Shown: positions 13,876 through 58,205 of the stretch, piece after piece
How the letters are laid out: the number at the start of each line of letters is the position of its first letter
Position numbering within the stretch: the first letter of the stretch is position 1
IMG/VR virus record: IMGVR_UViG_3300024331_000007
Coordinates: 96,001 to 160,000 of that record
Direction: 5' to 3' (one strand)
Length of the DNA stretch: 64,000 bases
Origin: a virus
Taxonomy: Duplodnaviria > Caudoviricetes
Program-made: the position numbers and the translations under genes
The notes under the pieces: model-generated
What the model saw: the letters and a program-made list of their open reading frames with translations, nothing else
Told to the model about the DNA's origin: nothing
Databases searched by the model: none

Positions 13876-14011
13876 TTTCTTTCCTCTTGTCACGCCTATA
13901 ACAAATCAACATGATTTGAATAAAACAATACACTGCCCCGGCAATTATGAAGCCAGCAAAGCCAAAAGTCAGAGCCAGCAATATTGTTAAATCCCACAAG
14001 GTTGTGGTCAT
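13853..14011 (-). CDS. small membrane protein (52 aa, not in ORF track)
   Basis: ATGA-coupled to the RNA ligase stop; MTTTLWDLTILLALTFGFAGFIIAGAVYCF... Confidence 0.5.
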   Translation of the reverse strand: MTTTLWDLTILLALTFGFAGFIIAGAVYCFIQIMLICYRRDKRKENGKILVK

Positions 14012-15348
14012 AGTTGTTCAGCTTCTTGCGTTTCCATATCAAGAACCCCAGCATCGTTCTTTTTGGTTTCGTCTTCAAGGAATTTGAAATTCTTGAGTTT
14101 GAAGGAATCACATTCGTCCAGACGATCAATACGTACCACAACACCCTCCGCTGGAACTTCTTTGTTGTTGAACGGACACATCTGATCGTAGACGTAACGA
14201 GTCTCCAGTTTGTTCATAAACTCATCCCGCCATCTCGCAAGGCCATCTTCGCCCCATGACGATACATTTGGTGCCCAACCTAAAAATAGAGAAACGGGTC
14301 CATAGAACAATTCATGCATCATTTGAAGCCCGTATTTATTGCAAAATTCTCTCACTTGTGGAACAGAAAGTTCAAGTGTTTTTCCGTCCACATTTGTAGT
14401 CTTAACACGATAAACGATAAACTTGTGTTCGCCCTTGGCACAACCATAATGATATGGGCGTCCACCAGATGCAGCTTGAATCGCTCCCCCGTCTGGTTTG
14501 TAACCAACAATCTCTCCATAGACAGTGTAGCTTGCTGGAATCTTGTCTTCAATCTCCTTCGCAACAACACCCCAAACATCTTCGCCAAACTTTCCTCCCA
14601 CGCTTTTAACAACCTTGCGTGAACTATACGCGAACTTGTATGTTGCCTCTTCGAGATGCGCTCCGCATTTCTTCATCAACTTTGAAATCCAGCACAGGTT
14701 TCTGTTGACAAGTAGCTTTCCGTAAATGGCAGAAGTTCCATGCCACTTATCGCTGATGCTTACATAGTCAGTTGGTTGAATTTTATGGATATTCTTACGA
14801 AGATTGTCAGTATCAAAATGAAATTTGAATTGTCCATCTACGATACTGTTCTTCAAAGAAAGCGCCTTGGAATTAACATTGCCACTAGAAGAACCACTCT
14901 TCCCAACAATATACTTTTGACAAATATCATGTCCGTCTATCTTATCAAAGGCATCTCCTACCTTCAGTGGAATGCTTCGTCCGTCATTGTGACCAAATAC
15001 ATATTCCAAGCTGCTCAAAGGAATCCAGAACCCCTCGCTCTTAACCCTGAGAAACTTTGCACACTTTATTCTGCGATGCGTTTCTAAATATCCAGTTTTT
15101 GATGAATCTATGTTACCCATTTCGGCACGACGATATAGATTGTTTGCAGACACAAACTCATGACTGAGTTGGGTTTCAACTGGAAAGAAAAGGCCGAGTT
15201 CTCCAGATTGAGCATCTTTATGGACAATTACGTTATTGCCAAAAATGATAGCAGACTTGATACGATCTGCTTTCGGAATCTGGACAAATTCTTTAAGTGA
15301 CACAATTGTAGCACAGTAATTTTTGTTTTTTGGTTCTTCAAGATTCAT
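14008..15348 (-). CDS. RNA ligase, Rnl2/DRB0094-like with N-terminal OB-like domain
   Basis: IPKADRIK N-terminus, motif I SDKWHGTS, VYGEIVG, EGVVVR, FKLK. Confidence 0.8.
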   Translation of the reverse strand: MNLEEPKNKNYCATIVSLKEFVQIPKADRIKSAIIFGNNVIVHKDAQSGELGLFFPVETQLSHEFVSANNLYRRAEMGNIDSSKTGYLETHRRIKCAKFLRVKSEGFWIPLSSLEYVFGHNDGRSIPLKVGDAFDKIDGHDICQKYIVGKSGSSSGNVNSKALSLKNSIVDGQFKFHFDTDNLRKNIHKIQPTDYVSISDKWHGTSAIYGKLLVNRNLCWISKLMKKCGAHLEEATYKFAYSSRKVVKSVGGKFGEDVWGVVAKEIEDKIPASYTVYGEIVGYKPDGGAIQAASGGRPYHYGCAKGEHKFIVYRVKTTNVDGKTLELSVPQVREFCNKYGLQMMHELFYGPVSLFLGWAPNVSSWGEDGLARWRDEFMNKLETRYVYDQMCPFNNKEVPAEGVVVRIDRLDECDSFKLKNFKFLEDETKKNDAGVLDMETQEAEQL

Positions 15349-15403
15349 GCGACACCTTTTCTGTAATTGTAGCAAATTTCCGAATGATTTGCAATAGGTT
15401 TAG

Positions 15404-18060: not shown

Positions 18061-18377
18061 TTTTGCTGGGCCTTGATTACAAGTTTCGCAACCGATACTG
18101 CCAGAGATGCAAAAAGATTTTCGTCTCCTGCCCCCTCACGGACCCTAACTCGAAATTCAGGAGGAATCATTTCAAGGATTCCAATGAGTTCCTTTTTAGT
18201 TTCGCTTTCCTGTCCGTCTTTTACGGCTTCAATCGACGCTGTCTTTGGTTTATCCTTGCAAGAATCGCAAATTTCATACTGGACAGTTTTGTTTGGGTCA
18301 GGACAACGACATTGTGTGATGGTCGTTCCGCACTCGCTACATTTGGTAATGAAGTGGCTCATAAAACTCCTACTCAA
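18057..18377 (-). CDS. hypothetical Zn-ribbon protein
   Basis: CSECG..QCRC...CDSC. Confidence 0.55.
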   Translation of the reverse strand: MSRSFMSHFITKCSECGTTITQCRCPDPNKTVQYEICDSCKDKPKTASIEAVKDGQESETKKELIGILEMIPPEFRVRVREGAGDENLFASLAVSVAKLVIKAQQK

Positions 18378-19503
18378 TAATGTGTGGGATGAACTGACTT
18401 GTATTGCCAGTCACTAGTGAAGCATCCTCACGAATGCCCATGCCAGCGGATTCTCCGTCAACAACCCAACTACCAATCACAGGATACCGATTGTCAAACT
18501 TCGGAAGAGAAGCCAAGCCTTGATAAACAAATGGCGCATCATAGTCACCTTCCGTTTCCGTTGTAGTAATTCCGTGCTCCACAACCTTGATGTTTGCTCC
18601 CTCTCGTGAAATGAAAGGCTTGCGAACATATGATAGATTGTGTCCAACAAAATAGTTCTCGTCAAAATATGCGGGTAACAAGAGTTCATCATTTGGGTAC
18701 ATTTCCCACAGTACCGCAAGCAATGCCTTGTTTGACCACATCATCTTCCACGCGGGTTCGATGAACGCACAGGCAGAGTTTGGAATGAACTTACCAAATT
18801 CGTCCTGAATCAGATTCTCCCACGGATAGAGTTTGAACAATGTACGAATTTGTTCATTGTCCAGATCAACCAAATCTCCAGTATTGGCATCATGCCCAAT
18901 GTCAGGAATTGCAATTGTTCGTACATCTACTCCAGCCTGTCTCGCAGTTTCCGCAAGATACGCGATTGTCATACCGTCTTCGCGATTCTCCAGTGCTGCA
19001 AAATGAATTGGTGTTTCCTGAATGTATTCGTTAATGTCTTTCCACTTTGCAACAAGCCTTTCATGCAAAGAGTTGAACTGGTCATTGTTTGCAAAACGAT
19101 CCTGTAGCCAATACCACTGAATAACAGAAGCCTCCAGCAAACTTGTCGGGGTATCAGCATTGTATTCCAACAGCTTAATGTTTGTTCCATCATAGGCCAA
19201 ATCAAATCGACCATATATTGCTGGTGGCTCAGTTTCCCATGTATGACGAATCAAACTTTCAGCTAACGGTCCAATACCCATCTTCGAAAATAGATTATTG
19301 TCGATAATGTATTGGCCTGCTGCGAGGCACATTTCCTGTAAACGATTGGTTGCGTTTTCCAGACGAGTTATTTCAGGCATGGAGAAAGAGTAATAGGCGC
19401 TCTCATTCCAATAAATTCCATCGTCAGTTGTGTGATAAAGCAAACCTTGTGACTCAACCGTTGATTCCCAATTGCTACGTGGAGAAATACTAATCCTCTT
19501 CAT
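18370..19503 (-). CDS. glutathionylspermidine synthase-like ATP-grasp protein (YgiC/YjfC family)
   Basis: YGRFDLAYDG, KLLEYNADTPTSLLEA, FKLYPWE, SNKALL, KPFISREGANI. Confidence 0.93.
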   Translation of the reverse strand: MKRISISPRSNWESTVESQGLLYHTTDDGIYWNESAYYSFSMPEITRLENATNRLQEMCLAAGQYIIDNNLFSKMGIGPLAESLIRHTWETEPPAIYGRFDLAYDGTNIKLLEYNADTPTSLLEASVIQWYWLQDRFANNDQFNSLHERLVAKWKDINEYIQETPIHFAALENREDGMTIAYLAETARQAGVDVRTIAIPDIGHDANTGDLVDLDNEQIRTLFKLYPWENLIQDEFGKFIPNSACAFIEPAWKMMWSNKALLAVLWEMYPNDELLLPAYFDENYFVGHNLSYVRKPFISREGANIKVVEHGITTTETEGDYDAPFVYQGLASLPKFDNRYPVIGSWVVDGESAGMGIREDASLVTGNTSQFIPHIIE

Positions 19504-19654
19504 CCGTGTCCTCAATCTCTCTTAGATGTTCACACAGTCCCAATTCACGAAACATTATGCGCGAATAGTTGTTTGGCAAATCAATTGCTTCGCCTTTTCG
19601 CAATTTATCGTAGTCTTCCAAGGTAATTACTGCAATATCACCTGCTTGTCGCAT
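19490..19654 (-). CDS. small hypothetical protein (54 aa, not in ORF track)
   Basis: TAATG-coupled to the upstream lipoprotein; MRQAGDIAVITLEDY... Confidence 0.4.
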   Translation of the reverse strand: MRQAGDIAVITLEDYDKLRKGEAIDLPNNYSRIMFRELGLCEHLREIEDTDEED

Positions 19655-22880: not shown

Positions 22881-24455
22881 TTAGCCCAAAAGTGTCTTGC
22901 GCATTCCAGCAAGAGTTACAGTGTTGAAGACTTTTCCATCCCTGAATCTCAGAACATATTCTCCAAGATCATCGAGGTTTGGAAGACGATCAACCAACTC
23001 GTATCCGATTTCTGGATTTACAGCCTTCAGGAATCCACGCGCCGATTTCTTCACGCCGCCCTTGTCAGTCTTTGGGTCTTTGAAGAGTTCAACCAATTCT
23101 CCATCAACCACAATAGCTGTTGCCTTGACTGCATTTCCAAAACTGTCGCGACTGTTGAACTGGTATGTGAAAGAACCAACCCCCAACACAACGTTACCGC
23201 TTGCAAAACCCTTGTTATACAGACCTTCAAGAATTTCCGCTGCTCTCTGGAGCGTGATGCTGTCTCCGTAGATCAGGCCGATGTGAGAATCCAAAAGTTT
23301 GAAACCCTTGTCCGTTGTAGTTCCGCCAAAGATTTCCCACAAGCATTCAATTGCTCCCTTGTACTCCGGGCTTCCAACTGGTGCGTCAGGATCGCCAACG
23401 ATGATCTTCACTGGATCGCCGCTATCGGGACGGATAACCACCTTGCCTTCGCGACTCATGATTACATCCTTGAGTTCGACGCAAACCTTTGTCACAACTG
23501 CCCAAAAGTCATAGGTATCTGCAACGTAGCTTATGATTCCATCAGGCTGAACTTCCGAGAACATGCGCTTTGCGCTCATCACTTCAGCATGATACAGATA
23601 TTCATCTTCCGTCAAATCAGGGAAAGCGTTTTTCAATGCTTCCTTAGAATCTTCGCGGAGTTTCTTCATTTCCTTGACGAACTTGAGGATTTGCGCGGAG
23701 CTAACGGCATGCTCACTTGCGCGAACGGACCCGCCAACCAATTCATTGTCGGAATCAGCGAAGTAATAATCTTCAAGATAATCAATGGCCGATTCGGTAT
23801 CGGTTCCAGTGAAACTCAACAGGTGAGCCGATCCAGAACGCGCCCCGTCTTCGATTCCAGACATGCCGCGATTTTCAAAACCGTGTGCTTGCCACTGAAC
23901 AAATTCCTTCGAAGAACCTGTGAGTTCGGCGTACTTGTCAAGCAACTTACGATATTCGTATGCAATAGTTGCGTTTGTGAGTGGCTTCCAAAGCTGAGTG
24001 CTAACAGCCGTCTCAATAAAGTTTACAAGCCAGTAGAAGTCTGGAAGTGTATTGAACCATACACAAACCGGGACGCGCATGTTAACACGAGCGCCTTCAG
24101 GAAGGGAGAAATATGCCAACGGCAAATATCCAAGATCGTGCAAAGCAGCAATGCGATGGGCGCTGACCTTTCCCTTGCCCAATGCGTTATCCATTCGGCG
24201 CTGATAGTGGCGAACTGCTTTTTCCTTTGGAAGATCGAAGAACGATTCGTTCCACAACTCAACCAAATATTCCATTACAACTGCGCCTTGGTGACCGTAG
24301 TTGACGACCTTATCGTCAAAAGACGGAAGCATGTTTGCCCATTTGCTAGAACGCGGGGTCATGTTCGAAAAGACGAGCGTCGTACCGCTTGGGTACATAT
24401 CCGCGTGCCCATCTTTGTAAAAATCCTTGCTGGTTGTTGCTCTTGGCTTAAACAT
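22881..24455 (-). CDS. nadV: NAMPT-like protein (NadV / NARP1 Namat-like)
   Basis: DFYKDGH, FSNMTPR, HGFENRG, SEHAV, ADTYD, IRPDSGDP, LIYGDSIT, KKSARG. Confidence 0.92.
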   Translation of the reverse strand: MFKPRATTSKDFYKDGHADMYPSGTTLVFSNMTPRSSKWANMLPSFDDKVVNYGHQGAVVMEYLVELWNESFFDLPKEKAVRHYQRRMDNALGKGKVSAHRIAALHDLGYLPLAYFSLPEGARVNMRVPVCVWFNTLPDFYWLVNFIETAVSTQLWKPLTNATIAYEYRKLLDKYAELTGSSKEFVQWQAHGFENRGMSGIEDGARSGSAHLLSFTGTDTESAIDYLEDYYFADSDNELVGGSVRASEHAVSSAQILKFVKEMKKLREDSKEALKNAFPDLTEDEYLYHAEVMSAKRMFSEVQPDGIISYVADTYDFWAVVTKVCVELKDVIMSREGKVVIRPDSGDPVKIIVGDPDAPVGSPEYKGAIECLWEIFGGTTTDKGFKLLDSHIGLIYGDSITLQRAAEILEGLYNKGFASGNVVLGVGSFTYQFNSRDSFGNAVKATAIVVDGELVELFKDPKTDKGGVKKSARGFLKAVNPEIGYELVDRLPNLDDLGEYVLRFRDGKVFNTVTLAGMRKTLLG

Positions 24456-24526
24456 ATTCAAATCCTCTCATTACTGCAATTGTTTTACATCAGCTTCCTT
24501 GCAATCTTCCGCAAGTTCATCGCCAT

Positions 24527-24722: not shown

Positions 24723-25610
24723 TTAAACTCTCACAATCGTAAGGTTTGGGTTAGTTGTGTCAACGTTGGGGAACGGATTAGCTGTGTAGATGTGCTTGAT
24801 TCCCGCTTCAGTGATTACGGCAAGACCCTTCGAAAAGATTCCGTGGGTGACGTAAAGTTCAATTCTTGGTTCAGTAACACCGACTCTGTTACTGAATGCT
24901 GTTACTTCAAAAGTGATTGCCTTTGCCAATTCAGTGAACGTTCGTCCACCATCGCAAATGTCGTCAACAATCAAAAATGTTTTTGTGTAATGTTCTGCTG
25001 GAATGTGAATCTGTGTCCCAGTGATTTCTCCGTTCTTCGGATCGCGAATTTTGCTGGCAGTAATCATGGGAAGATTGAATTTCTTCGCAACCTTGCCAAC
25101 CTTCTTCATTGCTCCAGCATCAGGAGATACAAGAATATATTGCTCTGCTGTTCCATTGACTTCGCGATAGCGATTGCGGCCAAGAACGTTTCCAAGGAAC
25201 GTCTCAGGCCCAATGTTGTGAACGCGATTGACGAGAGCAAGCGAAACATCACTGTGAACATCCCAAAGTTCAACAGAGTCAAAGTTGAGACTGTTGATAA
25301 TGTCGGCAATAGGACGAACGCCCAATGCTTCTCCTTCGGCACACACTCTATCCTGCCTTGCGTAAGGAAGATAGGGGCAAACGAGATTCAATTTGACATT
25401 TGGTTCGATGCGACGAAACGCATCCACGAGCATAACTAATTCCAGAACCTTATCGGAATCAGTAAGATTGGCAGTGATTGTGACGGTGTTGTGTTCAGTT
25501 TTCCAGCTTGTGATTCGAACGTGGATTTCCCCGCCGCTGAACTTCAACATTGTGTATTCGGGTAAACTTCCAACCTGCTTATGAGGAATCGATGCGTAAA
25601 TTTTAAACAT
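24723..25610 (-). CDS. prs: ribose-phosphate pyrophosphokinase-like protein (NARP1 Adps-like)
   Basis: FSGGE, YLPYARQDR, VSPDAGA, IVDDICDGGRTF, YVTHGIFS. Confidence 0.9.
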   Translation of the reverse strand: MFKIYASIPHKQVGSLPEYTMLKFSGGEIHVRITSWKTEHNTVTITANLTDSDKVLELVMLVDAFRRIEPNVKLNLVCPYLPYARQDRVCAEGEALGVRPIADIINSLNFDSVELWDVHSDVSLALVNRVHNIGPETFLGNVLGRNRYREVNGTAEQYILVSPDAGAMKKVGKVAKKFNLPMITASKIRDPKNGEITGTQIHIPAEHYTKTFLIVDDICDGGRTFTELAKAITFEVTAFSNRVGVTEPRIELYVTHGIFSKGLAVITEAGIKHIYTANPFPNVDTTNPNLTIVRV

Positions 25611-48216: not shown

Positions 48217-48759
48217 TTATCGAACTCTGTACGTGGCTGTACTTGAGGGGGTTTCTTTGAACGTAATTGCACTAAGCCACGCGGTTCCGTTTGTCTTTTC
48301 TAAAACTATCGGAGAAAGAATCTCAAAAAAATGCTTTGCAAGATATTCTGAAGTCGGTGCTCCTCTGATAATGTATGTCTTACCAAAGTTCGACTGTCCT
48401 GCCCAAAAACTTTTGTGATTAACTGAATCAACAACATCATTATACCAATCAGTAAAGATATGATATGGTTGGCGTGTTAATTTCTCATCATATGCCATGT
48501 TGATAAACTTTGTATCGTGCAATGAAAGTATAATTCCATGATCACACAAAGCATCAACATGATCCATTAAGATTTGTTTAAGAAATCCATAATCCAAAAT
48601 CATGTCAGTTTGAGGACCATCTTCGATTAAATCACCTGTTAACTCCGCGATGATCGTTCCGCGATGTCCGTGCAGGTTTTTACATTTTGATTCGTGCTTT
48701 GGTACTCGATGTGCGTAATCAAAATCTATTTCTTTGGATATTGACTTCTCTTCAATCAT
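48217..48759 (-). CDS. queD: 6-carboxy-tetrahydropterin synthase
   Basis: FDYAHR...CKNLHGH, DHG, PTSEYLA, ETP. Confidence 0.88.
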   Translation of the reverse strand: MIEEKSISKEIDFDYAHRVPKHESKCKNLHGHRGTIIAELTGDLIEDGPQTDMILDYGFLKQILMDHVDALCDHGIILSLHDTKFINMAYDEKLTRQPYHIFTDWYNDVVDSVNHKSFWAGQSNFGKTYIIRGAPTSEYLAKHFFEILSPIVLEKTNGTAWLSAITFKETPSSTATYRVR

Positions 48760-49430: not shown

Positions 49431-49502
49431 CATAAATACAAATGCGATTCGCGGTGTTGAAGCACCCAATCGCCCTAACGCTATTATGGAGCGCCAGCTA
49501 TG
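49431..49502 (+). promoter_or_regulatory. late box plus conserved two-hairpin leader, copy 3
   Basis: CATAAATA; GCGATT-CGC-GGTG-6nt-CACC-C-AATCGC; CGCT-attatgg-AGCG; CAGC-TATG. Confidence 0.75.
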
Positions 49503-50162
49503 GATATTTACTCCGCAAAATTTTCCCAAGACAAAAAATTTTATGTTTACGAATATCTTCGCGCACATAAATCAAAATATGGTGATATTGGAAGTCCCTA
49601 CTATGTAGGTAAAGGAACTGGTAGTAGAGCGTTTTCAAACGATCATACCACCAAACCGCCAAAAGACAAAAACAATATTCGTGTTTCAAGTTTGATGAAC
49701 GAAGCTGACGCTTTTCAAAACGAAATGTTCAAAATTATGTTGTCGGGCCGTATTGATCTTGGAACTGGTTGCTTACGAAATAGGACTGACGGCGGCGAAG
49801 GTTCGTCTGGAGCAATTCGTACTCAAGATACAATTCGTAAATGCGTAGAAGTTAGAAAACGAAACAATTCTTACAAACGAACTAAAGAAGCAGACAAAAA
49901 AGCCAATGCAACAAAATTTAAAAATGGAACTCATCGTCGTAGCAAAGACTCTCTTATAAAACAAATCAATACTAGGCGAGAAAAAGGTAACTTGAATACC
50001 TGTACTCTTGAAAGTAGAAGAAAATCAGTAGAAACACGAAAAGCAAATGGAACTCTCGGTCGCACCAAGGAATCTATAGCAAAAGGTCTTGCCACACGAA
50101 TATCAAAATATGGCCCATTTGCAAAACCAAAGTTTGAATTGTATTTGCCTTGTATTCTTTAA
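49500..50162 (+). CDS. GIY-YIG endonuclease adjacent to the tmRNA gene
   Basis: FYVYEYLR...PYYVGKG, LRNRTDGGEG, basic repeats. Confidence 0.85.
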   Translation: MDIYSAKFSQDKKFYVYEYLRAHKSKYGDIGSPYYVGKGTGSRAFSNDHTTKPPKDKNNIRVSSLMNEADAFQNEMFKIMLSGRIDLGTGCLRNRTDGGEGSSGAIRTQDTIRKCVEVRKRNNSYKRTKEADKKANATKFKNGTHRRSKDSLIKQINTRREKGNLNTCTLESRRKSVETRKANGTLGRTKESIAKGLATRISKYGPFAKPKFELYLPCIL

Positions 50163-50164
50163 CA

Positions 50165-50480
50165 AGGAACAAGGCTAAAACCTCGGAGTAGTTTTTAGGC
50201 TACTGGCACCGCTACGCGGTTGAGAGCAACTGTGTAAGTTGCAATCTCGGCATTGCGGCCACTGTTGTTCACAGCAATTATAGTTTCCATTCCCTTAACG
50301 TCAGGCTTGGTACTCGGTTCGTAACTAACGCTATATTTGACCCGTCGAAACCTTGGCACCCACATTTGAAAAACGTAATACATAAATTGGTGTAGGTGGC
50401 GGGAATCGAACCCGCGTCCGAATCAGTATAACGTGAGTCTCTCTCACACGAACGTCATTCGCAAAAACATCTTTACGAAT
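50165..50480 (-). ncRNA. ssrA: circularly permuted (two-piece) tmRNA
   Basis: acceptor piece ends GCGGG-TTCGATT-CCCGC-CACCTAC-A-CCA at 50388; after a 24-nt spacer the coding piece starts GTGGGTG-CCAAGGTTTCGAC-GGG at 50363; G3.U70; resume context TATAATT-GCT; tag frame 50275-50195; outer ends approximate. Confidence 0.88.
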
Positions 50481-50482
50481 GT

Positions 50483-51018
50483 TTAGGACTTTTCAGTCCT
50501 GAGCTTCGATGCGGCCTTCACTAAATCCGCATCATATGTCACATGAAACTTTACTTCAAAATCTTCAACCTTCTTTCCAGTCTTCCCATCTAAAACTTGA
50601 GTCCGTTTCAAAGTGCTATTCAACTTTCCATCGCACTTTGTATTCTTTTTCTTCAACTCGTCAATGAAATTGAGAGCCTCAGAACATTTCGCAAAATCTT
50701 TTACAGTGAGGTTCATTAGTTTGAATACCTACGTGAACCTTTCCGATCAGTCAACCACTCCAGATTCACACGCTTCGCAGTTTCAGTATTCTCACCAGCA
50801 TCAACAAGTTTGTTCCAGACAGTCGCAAAATTTCGTGCGGCATCTTCAGGAACGTCAGCAGCAATAAACTGTCCAGTCACACCGTCAAAAACATCAACAG
50901 TGTCCATTAGCGCGTTTGGGTTTTGCGCAGGAACCAAAATTACGTGATTTCCAGCTTCGCGCAACTTTTCTGTGATTGCTTCATCAAACCATTTCGTCAT
51001 TTCGTTCCTACTTTCCAT
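50483..51018 (-). CDS. two hypothetical genes (50483-50716, 50716-51018)
   Basis: TAATG-coupled; both contain V(L/F)DG(K/V)TG. Confidence 0.6.
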
Positions 51019-57083: not shown

Positions 57084-58205
57084 TTACTCGCCATCCACAC
57101 GGAATACAGAATCGCCCGAAGGTTCAACCATTTTCCAAATCATTGTATCAATCTTTTTGCCGTCCAACAAACCAAACAAAAGACCTGAATACTTACGATT
57201 TTGTTCCATCGTGAAGTACTCCGCCATCTTCTTACGTGATTCCTTGTAAGGTGTAAATGGGTCAAGTTGAGGGCGATTCACGTAGATCACGTTCACTGCG
57301 TTGTAAATCGCTTCATACTTTTCCGTCAAGGACAAAACAACACCCTTAACCCACGTCTTAAACGTATCAGGCATACGCGCATCTGAAAGCCAACCGTTTA
57401 CGGTTTCCATCTGTCCGTCACGCAACAATTCCCACACAGAACGAACGTTCAAACCCGTCAGAATCTTGTGAAGACGAACATACTCATCAAACTTGACCTT
57501 AACTTTCAGGCCAGTTGAAGGATACGTCAAAACATAACCTTCACGATTCTTGTCATTCTCGGCAAGTGACTCGGAAAGCGTCTTACGATATTCCTTGACG
57601 ACTTCCAAACCCATCGCACGACAATAATCCTTCACATTTGAACGCGAAGCCTCCACACCAGTTTCGATATTCACCGCTCCCAAAATTACCAGACCTTCAA
57701 AATCATAGTCCACGACAATTTTGTTCTCGGAATAAATTACTTCCGAAACAAGCGTATAATCCTTCAGCAACGTCAACGAAGGATATCGCGAACGCAACCA
57801 ATTCGTAGCCCATTCCGCTTGTTCTGAATGGAAAGCACCGCGAGTTGCAACGTGATTTAAACCATCCCACGCGAACATCGTACCCATTGAACCATCCAAC
57901 TTCTCAAGGAAAATTGCCTGTTCCTTCGGCAAGTTTTTCTCTAACGTTTCGGGGTGACGATCATCATTCAGATTCCAAAACTTTGCAAATGGACGCGCAA
58001 CAACCTCATTGTTGTCCATGCAATACACAAGACCGCGAGACAAATTCATCTCGTTACCCCAAATCAGCTTAGGGTCGTACTGTGCTTGCGGCGTATAATT
58101 CAACACTGCCAGAGGATACTGACGGTGAATTTTACGCGAGATGTAGCCTTCGTGAATCAAACGATTCAAGTTCTCCACATCCATGATTTGTGACAACTGA
58201 ATCAT
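57084..58205 (-). CDS. RNA ligase, T4 Rnl1-like
   Basis: RGLV, RPFAKFWN, motif I EKLDGS, EVIY, EGYV, KVKFDEY. Confidence 0.88.
   Translation of the reverse strand: MIQLSQIMDVENLNRLIHEGYISRKIHRQYPLAVLNYTPQAQYDPKLIWGNEMNLSRGLVYCMDNNEVVARPFAKFWNLNDDRHPETLEKNLPKEQAIFLEKLDGSMGTMFAWDGLNHVATRGAFHSEQAEWATNWLRSRYPSLTLLKDYTLVSEVIYSENKIVVDYDFEGLVILGAVNIETGVEASRSNVKDYCRAMGLEVVKEYRKTLSESLAENDKNREGYVLTYPSTGLKVKVKFDEYVRLHKILTGLNVRSVWELLRDGQMETVNGWLSDARMPDTFKTWVKGVVLSLTEKYEAIYNAVNVIYVNRPQLDPFTPYKESRKKMAEYFTMEQNRKYSGLLFGLLDGKKIDTMIWKMVEPSGDSVFRVDGE

What the first reader, a model, noticed from the sequence alone, without database searches (positions are those of the whole stretch)
50165..50480. Phage-encoded, circularly permuted (two-piece) tmRNA hidden behind a spurious 62-aa ORF
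Seen on minus: a T-arm + CACCTAC-A-CCA 3' end (to 50388) lies upstream of the 5' end GTGGGTG-CCAAGGTTTCGAC-GGG (from 50363), with a 24-nt AT-rich spacer between. The ends form G1-C72, U2-A71, G3.U70, G-C, G-C, U-A, G-C with A73. GGGTCA..TATAGCGT pairs with ACGTTATA.TGATTC (P2). TATAATT-GCT matches the WAUARNY-GCN resume consensus. Known: this permuted layout occurs in Alphaproteobacteria, some Betaproteobacteria and some marine cyanobacteria, while the phage tmRNAs I know are one-piece. Inference: this may be an independent permutation in a phage. U2-A71 replaces the usual G2-C71. I cannot tell whether it is already catalogued.
Basis: partly seen in the sequence, partly recalled or inferred. 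Interest (0 to 1): 0.9.

Follow-up and report, generated by a model that had tools for sequence, protein, structure and literature searches.

The report
Two-piece tmRNA gene in huge phage
A 360-kb uncultured soil phage carries a real, rearranged ("two-piece") gene for tmRNA, the RNA that rescues stalled ribosomes; such phage genes are already known, so this is a well-supported new member of a known kind and not a new invention.

Summary
ARAGORN calls a permuted tmRNA at 50104-50480 (-) with a 26-codon tag, AVNNSGRNAEIATYTVALNRVAVPVA*. Rfam RF04321 (tmRNA_permuted) scores 87.1 bits against a threshold of 47, E = 2.5e-15.

The window lies in a 359,890-bp IMG/VR virus record. That genome also has about 52 tRNAs and an RNase P RNA, but no SmpB, AlaRS or SspB.

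Five distinct related phage contigs carry a homologous permuted tmRNA at the same syntenic site. RNAalifold finds that 18 of 36 pairs keep pairing through changes on both sides. G3·U70, A73 and CCA never vary, and the tag frame stays open in all.

The 62-aa ORF is only the tag frame read upstream. Its single protein-level homologue matches just the tag.

The novelty claim fails. Two-piece phage tmRNAs are published (Buchholz 2022, PMC9004378). I found 48 more IMG/VR contigs with them, and this scan has notes on them in over 400 genomes. An independent permutation is not supported.

Modest new points:
- The body matches no alpha, beta or cyano model above threshold.
- The tags are long, with a conserved EIATY core.
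- The relatives have odd T-loops that ARAGORN misses.
- The two halves of the gene have different histories.

The parts
50147..50453 (-). Minimal extent of the permuted tmRNA gene, from the outer-helix 5' strand to the end of the post-tag pseudoknot. ARAGORN's wider call is 50104-50480.
   Evidence: ARAGORN; Rfam RF04321 at 50234-50453, 87.1 bits; helices mapped
50456..50481 (-). Leader hairpin CAUUCG/CGAAUG between the stop codon of the upstream ORF (50483-50485) and the tmRNA. It is either precursor leader or a 5' extension of the acceptor piece.
   Evidence: Sequence; MFE fold. Not conserved in the type II relatives
50448..50453 (-). Outer helix H1, 5' strand GUUCGU. It pairs with ACGAAC at 50317-50322.
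   Evidence: 6 of 6 sequences paired and 3 of 6 pairs compensatory (GUUCGU/ACGAAC, GAUUGU/ACAAUC, AAUAGU/ACUAUU)
50433..50447 (-). Local hairpin GUGAG-AGAGA-CUCAC in the acceptor piece.
   Evidence: Sequence; RNAalifold predicts a hairpin here in all relatives, with covarying stems
50420..50432 (-). P2, acceptor-piece strand. P2b is 50427-50432 and P2a (UGAUUC) is 50420-50425.
   Evidence: P2a: 6 of 6 paired, 2 pairs compensatory; RNAalifold pairs at columns 56-69/200-214
50399..50415 (-). T arm GCGGG-UUCGAUU-CCCGC with a canonical 7-nt T-loop.
   Evidence: stem 6 of 6 paired and 3 of 5 pairs compensatory across relatives
50388..50398 (-). Acceptor 3' strand CACCUAC (66-72), discriminator A73 and the encoded CCA. 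This is the 3' end of the acceptor piece.
50364..50387 (-). Intervening spacer of 24 nt, AU-rich, presumed to be excised. It contains no gene.
   Evidence: Spacers are 36-72 nt in relatives and vary in a 93%-identical relative
50357..50363 (-). Acceptor 5' strand GUGGGUG (1-7). This is the 5' end of the coding piece and the expected RNase P site before G1.
   Evidence: 7 of 7 pairs kept in 6 of 6 sequences, 4 compensatory, G3.U70 invariant; U2->G2 together with A71->C71 in run X3
50344..50356 (-). D-loop analogue CCAAGGUUUCGAC.
   Evidence: Rfam alignment; UUCGAC invariant in relatives
50328..50343 (-). P2, coding-piece strand (GGGUCA..UAUAGCGU).
50317..50322 (-). Outer helix H1, 3' strand ACGAAC.
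50287..50310 (-). Two-tier hairpin before the resume codon (CCA..CCU[GACGUUA]AGG..UGG), in the place of pseudoknot 1.
   Evidence: Read from the alignment. Equivalent stems are GGU..UCUC/GAGA..ACC in L058 and GUAU..CCGU/ACGG..AUGC in L060. My own reading, not formally scored.
50276..50282 (-). Resume signal UAUAAUU, immediately 5' of the resume codon.
   Evidence: ARAGORN resume consensus; conserved as UAUAAU(U/C) or CAUAGUU in relatives
50195..50275 (-). Tag reading frame from GCU to UAA: AVNNSGRNAEIATYTVALNRVAVPVA*.
   Evidence: frame open in all 6 relatives with lengths of 72-87 nt; 3 synonymous against 1 non-synonymous change versus L052
50147..50185 (-). Post-tag H-type pseudoknot. Stem 1 is CGAGG (50185-50181) with CCUUG (50167-50163). 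Stem 2 is GCCUUGU (50175-50169) with ACAAGGC (50153-50147). The third loop is A-rich.
   Evidence: The middle pair of stem 1 is A-U, U-A or G-C across relatives, and stem 2 differs in every lineage. The same design occurs in 21 of 26 other distinct phage permuted tmRNAs against 131 of 1040 shuffles
50195..50383 (-). Spurious 62-aa ORF: the tag frame read upstream through the tRNA-like domain and spacer.
   Evidence: No PHROG match. The only non-self protein hit aligns over just the tag plus 8 codons
50483..50716 (-). Upstream 77-aa ORF of unknown function. It is the conserved syntenic neighbour and its stop codon lies 2 nt before ARAGORN's tmRNA start.
   Evidence: Homologues 65-78% identical sit directly upstream of the tmRNA in L052, L053 and L054
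48812..49465 (-). RNase_T/DEDD exonuclease gene, the downstream syntenic marker of the locus. It is followed by QueD/PTPS at 48217-48759.
   Evidence: PHROG; Pfam and synteny in relatives

Best explanation
This is a functional, circularly permuted (two-piece) tmRNA gene of a roughly 360-kb uncultured soil phage. It belongs to a small clade of related phages that keep the gene at one syntenic site.

Inferred mechanism:
1. The gene is transcribed as one precursor, probably together with the small upstream ORFs.
2. RNase P cuts before G1 (50363). The phage encodes its own RNase P RNA. 3' trimming leaves the encoded CCA (50388), and the 24-nt spacer is discarded.
3. The acceptor piece (about 65-95 nt) and the coding piece (about 215 nt) stay together through the 7-bp acceptor stem, P2 and a 6-bp outer helix.
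4. Host AlaRS charges the RNA through G3.U70 and A73. Host SmpB and EF-Tu deliver it to stalled ribosomes.
5. Translation resumes at GCU (50275) and adds the 26-residue tag ending in VPVA.

The benefit to the phage is most likely to keep ribosomes free during infection and to mark the truncated proteins.

Shown: the sequence and structure features, their conservation and covariation, conservation of the tag frame, and the absence of phage SmpB and AlaRS. Inferred: transcription, processing into two pieces, charging, tagging and the fate of tagged proteins.
For: Detection:
- ARAGORN calls a permuted tmRNA.
- Rfam RF04321 scores 87.1 bits against a gathering score of 47, E = 2.5e-15, full model 1-213.
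- The MFE fold recovers the tRNA-like domain, z = -3.41.

Conservation:
- Homologous permuted tmRNAs (RF04321, 50.8-69.5 bits) lie at the same syntenic site in L052, L054, L056, L058/59/62 and L060. The order is small ORF, tmRNA, RNase_T, QueD, NadA.

Covariation:
- RNAalifold independently predicts the outer helix, P2, T stem and acceptor stem. 18 of 36 pairs are kept through changes on both sides.
- In the acceptor stem 4 of 7 pairs are compensatory and none is broken. G3.U70, A73 and CCA are invariant.
- A 93%-identical contig from another study switches U2-A71 to G2-C71.

Tag frame:
- The frame is open in all relatives, from a conserved resume signal to a conserved GCCUAA landmark. Lengths of 72-87 nt all differ by multiples of three.
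- There are 3 synonymous against 1 non-synonymous change versus L052.
- An in-frame AUG is not conserved.

Other:
- The post-tag pseudoknot covaries.
- The genome has about 52 tRNAs and an RNase P RNA of 118 bits.
- Phage two-piece tmRNAs are a documented class (PMC9004378; PMC11915505).
Against: - There are no expression or processing data.
- The host is unknown, so compatibility with host SmpB and AlaRS is untested.
- U2-A71 replaces G2-C71, which the phage's own three tRNA-Ala genes and all relatives keep. This may lower charging.
- The tag ends in PVA, not the usual LAA, and is unusually long, so whether it acts as a protease degron is uncertain.
- No clear pseudoknot 1 is present. A hairpin sits in its place.
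- One close relative (L055) has lost the tRNA-like domain, so the gene is dispensable in at least one lineage.
- The body matches no alpha, beta or cyano lineage model above threshold.
Confidence: 0.85

Rival explanations
1. The RNA is made but acts mainly as a decoy or inhibitor of host trans-translation. It would titrate host SmpB, AlaRS or EF-Tu, as proposed for the tRNA-domain-only molecule of mycobacteriophage DS6A. It would not act as a productive rescue and tagging RNA.
For: - The phage has no SmpB of its own.
- U2-A71 is non-canonical.
- Relatives have non-canonical T-loops of 7-10 nt that ARAGORN rejects.
- A precedent is cited in PMC4131195 and PMC11915505.
Against: - A pure decoy needs no message. 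Here the resume signal, the open tag frame with a synonymous-biased substitution pattern, and the post-tag pseudoknot are all conserved across the clade.
- G3.U70, A73 and CCA are invariant.
Confidence: 0.08
2. This clade descends from an independent, phage-borne permutation of a one-piece tmRNA. It would not derive from the alpha, beta or cyano permuted lineages.
For: - No lineage-specific model reaches threshold. Beta scores 56.6 against 84, over the tRNA-like domain only. The best model for L058 is alpha at 41.5 against 50.
- The tags are unlike those of the other 26 distinct phage permuted tmRNAs I collected.
- The U2-A71 permuted pattern and the resume motif gave no hit in 185,579 species genomes.
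Against: - The helix order matches the generic permuted consensus and the beta consensus.
- The post-tag pseudoknot design is shared with 21 of 26 other phage permuted tmRNAs.
- 5-6 of 20 other phage permuted tmRNAs are equally unassignable, so divergence alone explains the low scores.
- No one-piece relative with a homologous message half was found.
- Permuted tmRNAs are abundant in phages.
Confidence: 0.06
3. The 62-aa ORF, or a shorter 31-codon ORF starting at the in-frame AUG at 50290, is a real small protein gene, and the tmRNA resemblance is secondary.
For: - The ORF is open under table 11.
- An in-frame AUG with AAGGGA just upstream exists in the window, L052, L054 and L056.
Against: - No PHROG match.
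- Protein similarity to the only homologue covers just the tag plus 8 codons, and the N-terminal halves are unrelated.
- The in-frame AUG is absent in L058 and out of frame in L060.
- The upstream part of the ORF is the covarying tRNA-like domain.
Confidence: 0.01

Closest known systems
Phage-encoded two-piece tmRNAs of aquatic myophages (Methylophilales phage Melnitz and SAR11 myophages; Buchholz et al. 2022, PMC9004378)
   Same: Both are complete circularly permuted ssrA genes carried by a lytic-type phage, with the acceptor piece upstream of the coding piece, and are detected by ARAGORN as tmRNA*. Both presumably depend on host SmpB.
   Different: - Melnitz's gene is reported as alphaproteobacterial in type and coupled to a glutamine riboswitch. 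I found no riboswitch here.
- This gene is not assignable to alpha, beta or cyano.
- This phage comes from soil and is about 360 kb.
- The tag is 26 aa, against roughly 10-14.
Betaproteobacterial-type two-piece tmRNA (Rfam RF01850), the commonest type among the IMG/VR phage permuted tmRNAs I sampled (13 of 20)
   Same: - The order of helices is the same: outer helix, P2, T arm, acceptor with spacer, P2, outer helix.
- Both have a single hairpin before the resume codon.
- Both have a hairpin after the stop codon whose loop begins CCUUG and is A-rich.
- It is the best lineage model for the window.
   Different: - Only the tRNA-like domain aligns (model positions 76-171 of 331, 56.6 bits against a gathering score of 84).
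- The 5' extension and the terminal hairpin of the beta model do not align with the window.
- The tag is unrelated.
Caulobacter crescentus two-piece tmRNA (Keiler, Shapiro and Williams 2000, as cited in PMC9004378 and PMC11915505)
   Same: [quoted passage not shown]
   Different: The Caulobacter RNA is chromosomal, shown experimentally to work, and partnered by its own SmpB and SspB. Here the gene is phage-borne, untested, and the genome has no SmpB or SspB.
One-piece phage tmRNAs (mycobacteriophage cluster C such as Bxz1, Bacillus phage G; PMC4131195) and tmRNAs of huge phages (Al-Shayeb et al. 2020, PMC7162821)
   Same: A large phage with a big tRNA set also carries ssrA as part of a translation-support repertoire.
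   Different: Those genes have the standard order. Al-Shayeb et al. also report SmpB in their huge-phage genome set, which this phage lacks.

Membership tests
tmRNA, permuted (two-piece) form (Rfam RF04321) | Scores above the curated gathering threshold of the family covariance model over its full length | tested here: met
   87.1 bits against 47, model positions 1-213 of 213, E = 2.5e-15
tmRNA, permuted (two-piece) form (Rfam RF04321) | Permuted gene order: T arm, acceptor 3' strand and CCA lie upstream of the acceptor 5' strand, separated by an intervening segment | tested here: met
   CCA ends at 50388 and G1 is at 50363, with a 24-nt spacer
tmRNA, permuted (two-piece) form (Rfam RF04321) | tRNA-Ala-like acceptor stem: 7 bp with G3.U70 and discriminator A73 | tested here: met
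   GUGGGUG/CACCUAC-A-CCA. G3.U70 and A73 are invariant in 6 of 6 sequences, and 4 of 7 pairs are compensatory. G2-C71 is replaced by U2-A71 in the window only.
tmRNA, permuted (two-piece) form (Rfam RF04321) | Canonical T arm and D-loop analogue (GGUUCGAnUCC and GGUUUCGAC) | tested here: met
   GCGGG-UUCGAUU-CCCGC and CCAAGGUUUCGAC. Relatives deviate, with T-loops UUGCGAUAU, UAGCAUAG, UAUCGUAU and GGCAGCA.
tmRNA, permuted (two-piece) form (Rfam RF04321) | P2 helices joining the two pieces, supported by covariation | tested here: met
   P2a and the outer helix are paired in 6 of 6 sequences, with 2 and 3 compensatory pairs. RNAalifold agrees.
tmRNA, permuted (two-piece) form (Rfam RF04321) | Resume signal plus a short tag reading frame that starts with Ala (or Asp/Gly) and ends in a hydrophobic, Ala-rich C-terminus and a stop codon | tested here: met
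   UAUAAUU|GCU ... GCC UAA. The frame is conserved in 6 of 6 sequences. Atypical points: 26 residues long and ending PVA, not LAA.
tmRNA, permuted (two-piece) form (Rfam RF04321) | Pseudoknot 1 upstream of the resume codon | tested here: inconclusive
   A conserved two-tier hairpin occupies the position. I could not find a convincing second stem in the window (by inspection).
tmRNA, permuted (two-piece) form (Rfam RF04321) | Processing of the precursor into two RNAs, alanylation, and SmpB-dependent tagging | not testable with these tools
   No data on transcription, RNA ends or charging were available. The phage has no SmpB or AlaRS.
beta_tmRNA (RF01850) | Full-length match above the gathering score, including the lineage-specific 5' extension and 3' body | tested here: not met
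   56.6 bits against 84, with only model positions 76-171 of 331 aligned. 13 of 20 other phage permuted tmRNAs do meet it.
alpha_tmRNA (RF01849) and cyano_tmRNA (RF01851) | Match above the gathering score | tested here: not met
   No match at gathering threshold in the window. At the permissive threshold they scored below beta and were suppressed as clan overlaps. The relative L058 reaches alpha 41.5 against 50.

The most novel reading that the evidence does not exclude
The clade represents a phage-specific lineage of two-piece tmRNA. It would be either an independent permutation or one long separated from the bacterial alpha, beta and cyano lines. On this reading:
- The long, conserved tag (N-terminal AN(S/N)V, central EIATY, C-terminal VPVA, LVAA or VLA) serves a phage purpose other than the host's standard ClpXP degron.
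- The tRNA-like and message halves are exchanged as modules between phages.
Probability: 0.12. Interest if true: 0.6.

Novelty: new member of a known kind. Interest (0 to 1): 0.3.

Why it matters
The practical value is in annotation.
- A 62-aa "hypothetical protein" should be replaced by ssrA.
- The relatives of this gene are invisible to ARAGORN, which is the tool used by Pharokka and by the huge-phage survey (PMC7162821). Only the newer RF04321 model finds them, so tmRNAs in large soil phages are probably under-counted.

Biologically, it adds a soil huge-phage clade to a class described mainly from aquatic phages. It also shows a phage that carries about 52 tRNAs, RNase P RNA and tmRNA yet leaves SmpB and AlaRS to the host.

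The long conserved tag and the mosaic history of the two halves are small open questions. None of this overturns current understanding.

Tried and rejected
Searches that found nothing:
- blastn of 3 kb around the locus against 50,697 GenBank phages: no match.
- Relatives through the convergent 220-aa ORF: none. Through the 185-aa ORF: only two partial hits, not followed.
- Permuted-gene pattern with U2-A71: 0 hits in metagenome contigs and in genome contigs.
- Wobble-degenerate tag pattern in metagenomes: 0 hits.
- Resume-region pattern: 0 hits in viral and genome contigs.
- Message-half pattern (EIATY plus pseudoknot) in viral contigs: only L062, which is the same as L058, and a chance GC-rich hit, L063. 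So no one-piece relative was found.

Data that could not be obtained:
- Sequencing runs: no RNA holder listed, so expression could not be examined. Small-share runs mostly held only the universally conserved T arm of other organisms.
- Sharkady and Williams 2004 is not held in the library.

Ideas rejected:
- L002-L004 also have U2-A71, but the rest of the RNA is unrelated.
- L007/L033 as donor of the window's tRNA-like domain: similarity stops at the universally conserved core.
- My first, strict pseudoknot finder missed most cases. I replaced it with relaxed criteria plus shuffled controls.

I did not use the count of structure pairs, to avoid typing a long structure string. RNAalifold and my own script gave the pair counts.

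Full report
**1. Is it there?**

Yes. Read on the minus strand, the locus has these elements in order:
- a T arm GCGGG-UUCGAUU-CCCGC (50415-50399);
- the acceptor 3' strand CACCUAC, discriminator A and CCA (50398-50388);
- a 24-nt AU-rich spacer (50387-50364);
- the acceptor 5' strand GUGGGUG (50363-50357);
- CCAAGGUUUCGAC, then the P2 strands;
- a resume signal UAUAAUU, followed by GCU (50275) and a 26-codon frame ending in UAA (50197-50195).

ARAGORN makes a single call in the 64-kb window, a permuted tmRNA at 50104-50480 (-) with tag AVNNSGRNAEIATYTVALNRVAVPVA*. Infernal with Rfam 15 gives RF04321 tmRNA_permuted 87.1 bits (gathering score 47), E = 2.5e-15, over the full model. The minimum-energy fold of 50140-50485 recovers the tRNA-like domain and is more stable than all 100 shuffles (z = -3.41).

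**2. Context**

The window is bases 96001-160000 of a 359,890-bp IMG/VR virus record with CheckV completeness of about 90%. The window encodes a DnaB-type helicase, two RNA ligases, NAMPT, a virion structural protein, a QueD-like enzyme and a DEDD exonuclease.

The genome carries about 52 tRNA genes. It has no SmpB, no AlaRS, no SspB and no second tmRNA. The phage therefore supplies the RNA, and perhaps the enzyme that cuts its 5' end, but must use host SmpB, AlaRS and EF-Tu.

**3. Relatives and covariation**

Pattern scans for close relatives failed. Two indirect routes worked.

*The spurious ORF as a protein query.* The 62-aa ORF found one non-self protein, P0002. It aligns only over the tag and eight codons before it, and the N-terminal halves are unrelated. 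That is how an RNA gene behaves, not a protein.

*The flanking proteins.* The upstream 77-aa ORF and the downstream exonuclease led to contigs L052, L054, L056, L058/L059 (identical to IMG/VR L062) and L060. Each has an RF04321 hit of 50.8-69.5 bits at the same syntenic place.

*Pair counts.* On an alignment of the six tRNA-like domains, RNAalifold independently predicts the outer helix, a local hairpin, P2, the T stem and the acceptor stem. 18 of 36 pairs are kept through changes on both sides. My own count gives:

| Helix | Result |
|---|---|
| Acceptor stem | 7 of 7 pairs kept in 6 of 6 sequences, 4 compensatory; G3.U70, A73 and CCA invariant |
| T stem | 3 of 5 pairs compensatory |
| P2a | 2 of 6 pairs compensatory |
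| Outer helix | 3 of 6 pairs compensatory |

*A closer relative.* A 224-nt contig from a rhizosphere run of another study is about 93% identical across 50273-50480. It changes U2 to G2 together with A71 to C71. It also changes U6 to C6, probably together with A67 to G67.

The refutation test "no covariation in acceptor and P2" is therefore failed by the data, and the structure stands.

**4. The message half**

The tags in the clade are:

| Source | Tag |
|---|---|
| Window | AVNNSGRNAEIATYTVALNRVAVPVA |
| P0002 | AVNNNSGRNAEIATYTVALNRVAVPVA |
| L052 | ANSVTDGRNTEIATYTVALNRVAVPVA |
| L054 | ANSVNDGTDIHTYTMKVRELVAA |
| L056 | ANSVIDGVNEIATYQVRKPVYELVAA |
| L058 | AANRINGVNEIATYNVVRNQVNVPVLA |
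| L060 | DNTVASGVKEIATYAVRVSNPVRELVLA |

The distance between two conserved RNA landmarks, the resume signal and GCCUAA before the pseudoknot, is a multiple of three in all six sequences (72-87 nt). Window against L052 shows 3 synonymous and 1 non-synonymous change. An in-frame AUG exists in four sequences but is absent in L058 and out of frame in L060, so ordinary initiation is not what is conserved.

After the stop codon lies an H-type pseudoknot. The middle pair of stem 1 is A-U, U-A or G-C in different relatives, and stem 2 differs in every lineage. Before the resume codon I see a conserved two-tier hairpin and no clear pseudoknot 1. That is by inspection only.

**5. Is it new?**

- Buchholz et al. 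2022 (PMC9004378) describe the two-piece ssrA of phage Melnitz. They counted 53 two-piece forms among 133 unique phage tmRNAs.
- The 2025 tmRNA database paper (PMC11915505) lists 79 phage sequences and created RF04321.
- Huge phages with tmRNA were reported in PMC7162821.
- One pattern scan of IMG/VR returned 48 contigs with permuted tmRNAs, and ARAGORN called one in 45 of them. Several are from phages of 146-332 kb.
- This scan's own notes mention such genes in more than 400 genomes.

So the kind is known.

**6. Independent permutation?**

I could not support it. Lineage models give only beta_tmRNA 56.6 bits (below 84), restricted to the tRNA-like domain. But 5-6 of 20 other phage permuted tmRNAs are equally unassignable, while 13 are full-length beta type and 2 are alpha type.

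The beta consensus has the same order of helices, a single hairpin before the resume codon, and a post-stop hairpin whose loop starts CCUUG and is A-rich. A pseudoknot of this geometry follows the tag in 21 of 26 distinct phage permuted tmRNAs, against 131 of 1040 shuffles. No one-piece relative with a homologous message half was found. The simplest reading is a diverged member of the existing pool of permuted phage tmRNAs.

**7. What is mildly unusual**

- *U2-A71.* The window alone has it. The phage's three tRNA-Ala genes and all relatives keep G2-C71. L002-L004 show that U2-A71 also occurs in an unrelated phage tmRNA.
- *Odd T-loops in relatives.* They have 7-10 nt that depart from UUCGAnU, and ARAGORN finds none of them.
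- *Spacer hairpin.* The relatives' spacers (36-72 nt) hold a covarying hairpin with an (A/G)CGAA-type loop. The window's 24-nt spacer lacks it.
- *Mosaic history.* By flanking proteins L052 is the nearest relative (88% and 80% identity), and the message half agrees (86-93%). The acceptor piece, however, is closer to the more distant L058 (77% against 66%). This implies exchange of the tRNA-like module within the clade. The inference rests on few sequences.
- *Loss in one relative.* L055 keeps only the end of the tag frame and the pseudoknot, so the gene can be lost.

**8. Verdict**

This is a real, conserved, probably functional two-piece tmRNA of a huge soil phage. It is a new member of a known kind. 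Confidence in identity is high. Confidence in function is moderate, because nothing is known about expression, processing, charging or the host.

Noticed in passing
L052:3011-3229, L054:513-780, L056:969-1273, L058:2373-2613, L060:1856-2072: Related phages carry homologous permuted tmRNAs whose T-loops are non-canonical (UAGCAUAG, GGCAGCA, a 9-nt loop, UUGCGAUAU, UAUCGUAU). ARAGORN finds none of them and only Rfam RF04321 does, so ARAGORN-based phage annotation will miss this clade.
   Followed up: yes
L055:1-330: In a close relative (exonuclease 82% identical) only the last part of the tag frame and the post-tag pseudoknot remain. The tRNA-like domain and resume region are replaced by an ORF (L055:3-173). 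This is a decayed tmRNA.
   Followed up: partly
L052:3075-3114, L054:576-618, L058:2440-2475, L060:1921-1958: The excised spacers of the relatives contain a short hairpin with covarying stem and a conserved (A/G)CGAA(A/U)(C/A) loop just before the coding piece's 5' end. The window's 24-nt spacer lacks it, and L056 has a 72-nt spacer with extra hairpins. It may be a processing signal.
   Followed up: partly
window 50388-50453 versus 50147-50316: The two halves of the gene have different nearest relatives. The acceptor piece is closest to L058 (77%), while the message half is closest to L052 (86-93%), which is also the nearest by flanking proteins. This suggests module exchange between phages.
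   Followed up: partly
genome C1:24352-24428, 24878-24953, 25202-25279 and L069:2188-2265 (outside the window): ARAGORN lists two tRNAs with anticodon CUA, one with UUA (both stop-codon readers) and one tRNA with a four-base anticodon 'cacg'. All tag frames of the tmRNA clade end in UAA, which a UUA-anticodon tRNA could in principle read through.
   Followed up: no
L061:1501-2150 (genome C1:19454-20103): The phage encodes a bacterial type A RNase P RNA (118 bits, above the gathering score). This is the enzyme that should cut the 5' end of the tmRNA coding piece and of its roughly 52 tRNAs.
   Followed up: partly
L065:1501-1575 (genome C1:15848-15922): The phage tRNA-Ala(UGC) has the acceptor stem GGGCGCG/CGCGUCC, identical to the acceptor stem of the tmRNA in relative L054. 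All three phage tRNA-Ala genes keep G2-C71, unlike the window's tmRNA.
   Followed up: yes
window 49500-50162 (+): A convergent 220-aa ORF (PHROG 15526/10829, unknown function) ends 16 nt inside the 3' strand of the tmRNA's post-tag pseudoknot. L052 has a similar convergent ORF, while other relatives have same-strand small ORFs there.
   Followed up: no
window 14008-15375 and 57084-58205: There are two RNA ligase genes (PHROG 968 and PHROG 562), which fit the phage's heavy investment in tRNA and translation upkeep. NAMPT (22881-24461) and glutathionylspermidine synthase (18370-19515) also lie in the window.
   Followed up: no
window 50427-50577: A 151-nt contig from a 2025 freshwater metagenome run (X5) differs at only 3 positions, so a near-identical phage occurs outside soil.
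   Followed up: no
L007:6687-7034 and L033:3895-4242: Two other IMG/VR phages carry permuted tmRNAs with 24-residue tags that match no lineage model. They have a post-tag pseudoknot very like this clade's (loop CCCUAG.AAAG.AAA). They may belong to a wider group of long-tag phage tmRNAs.
   Followed up: partly
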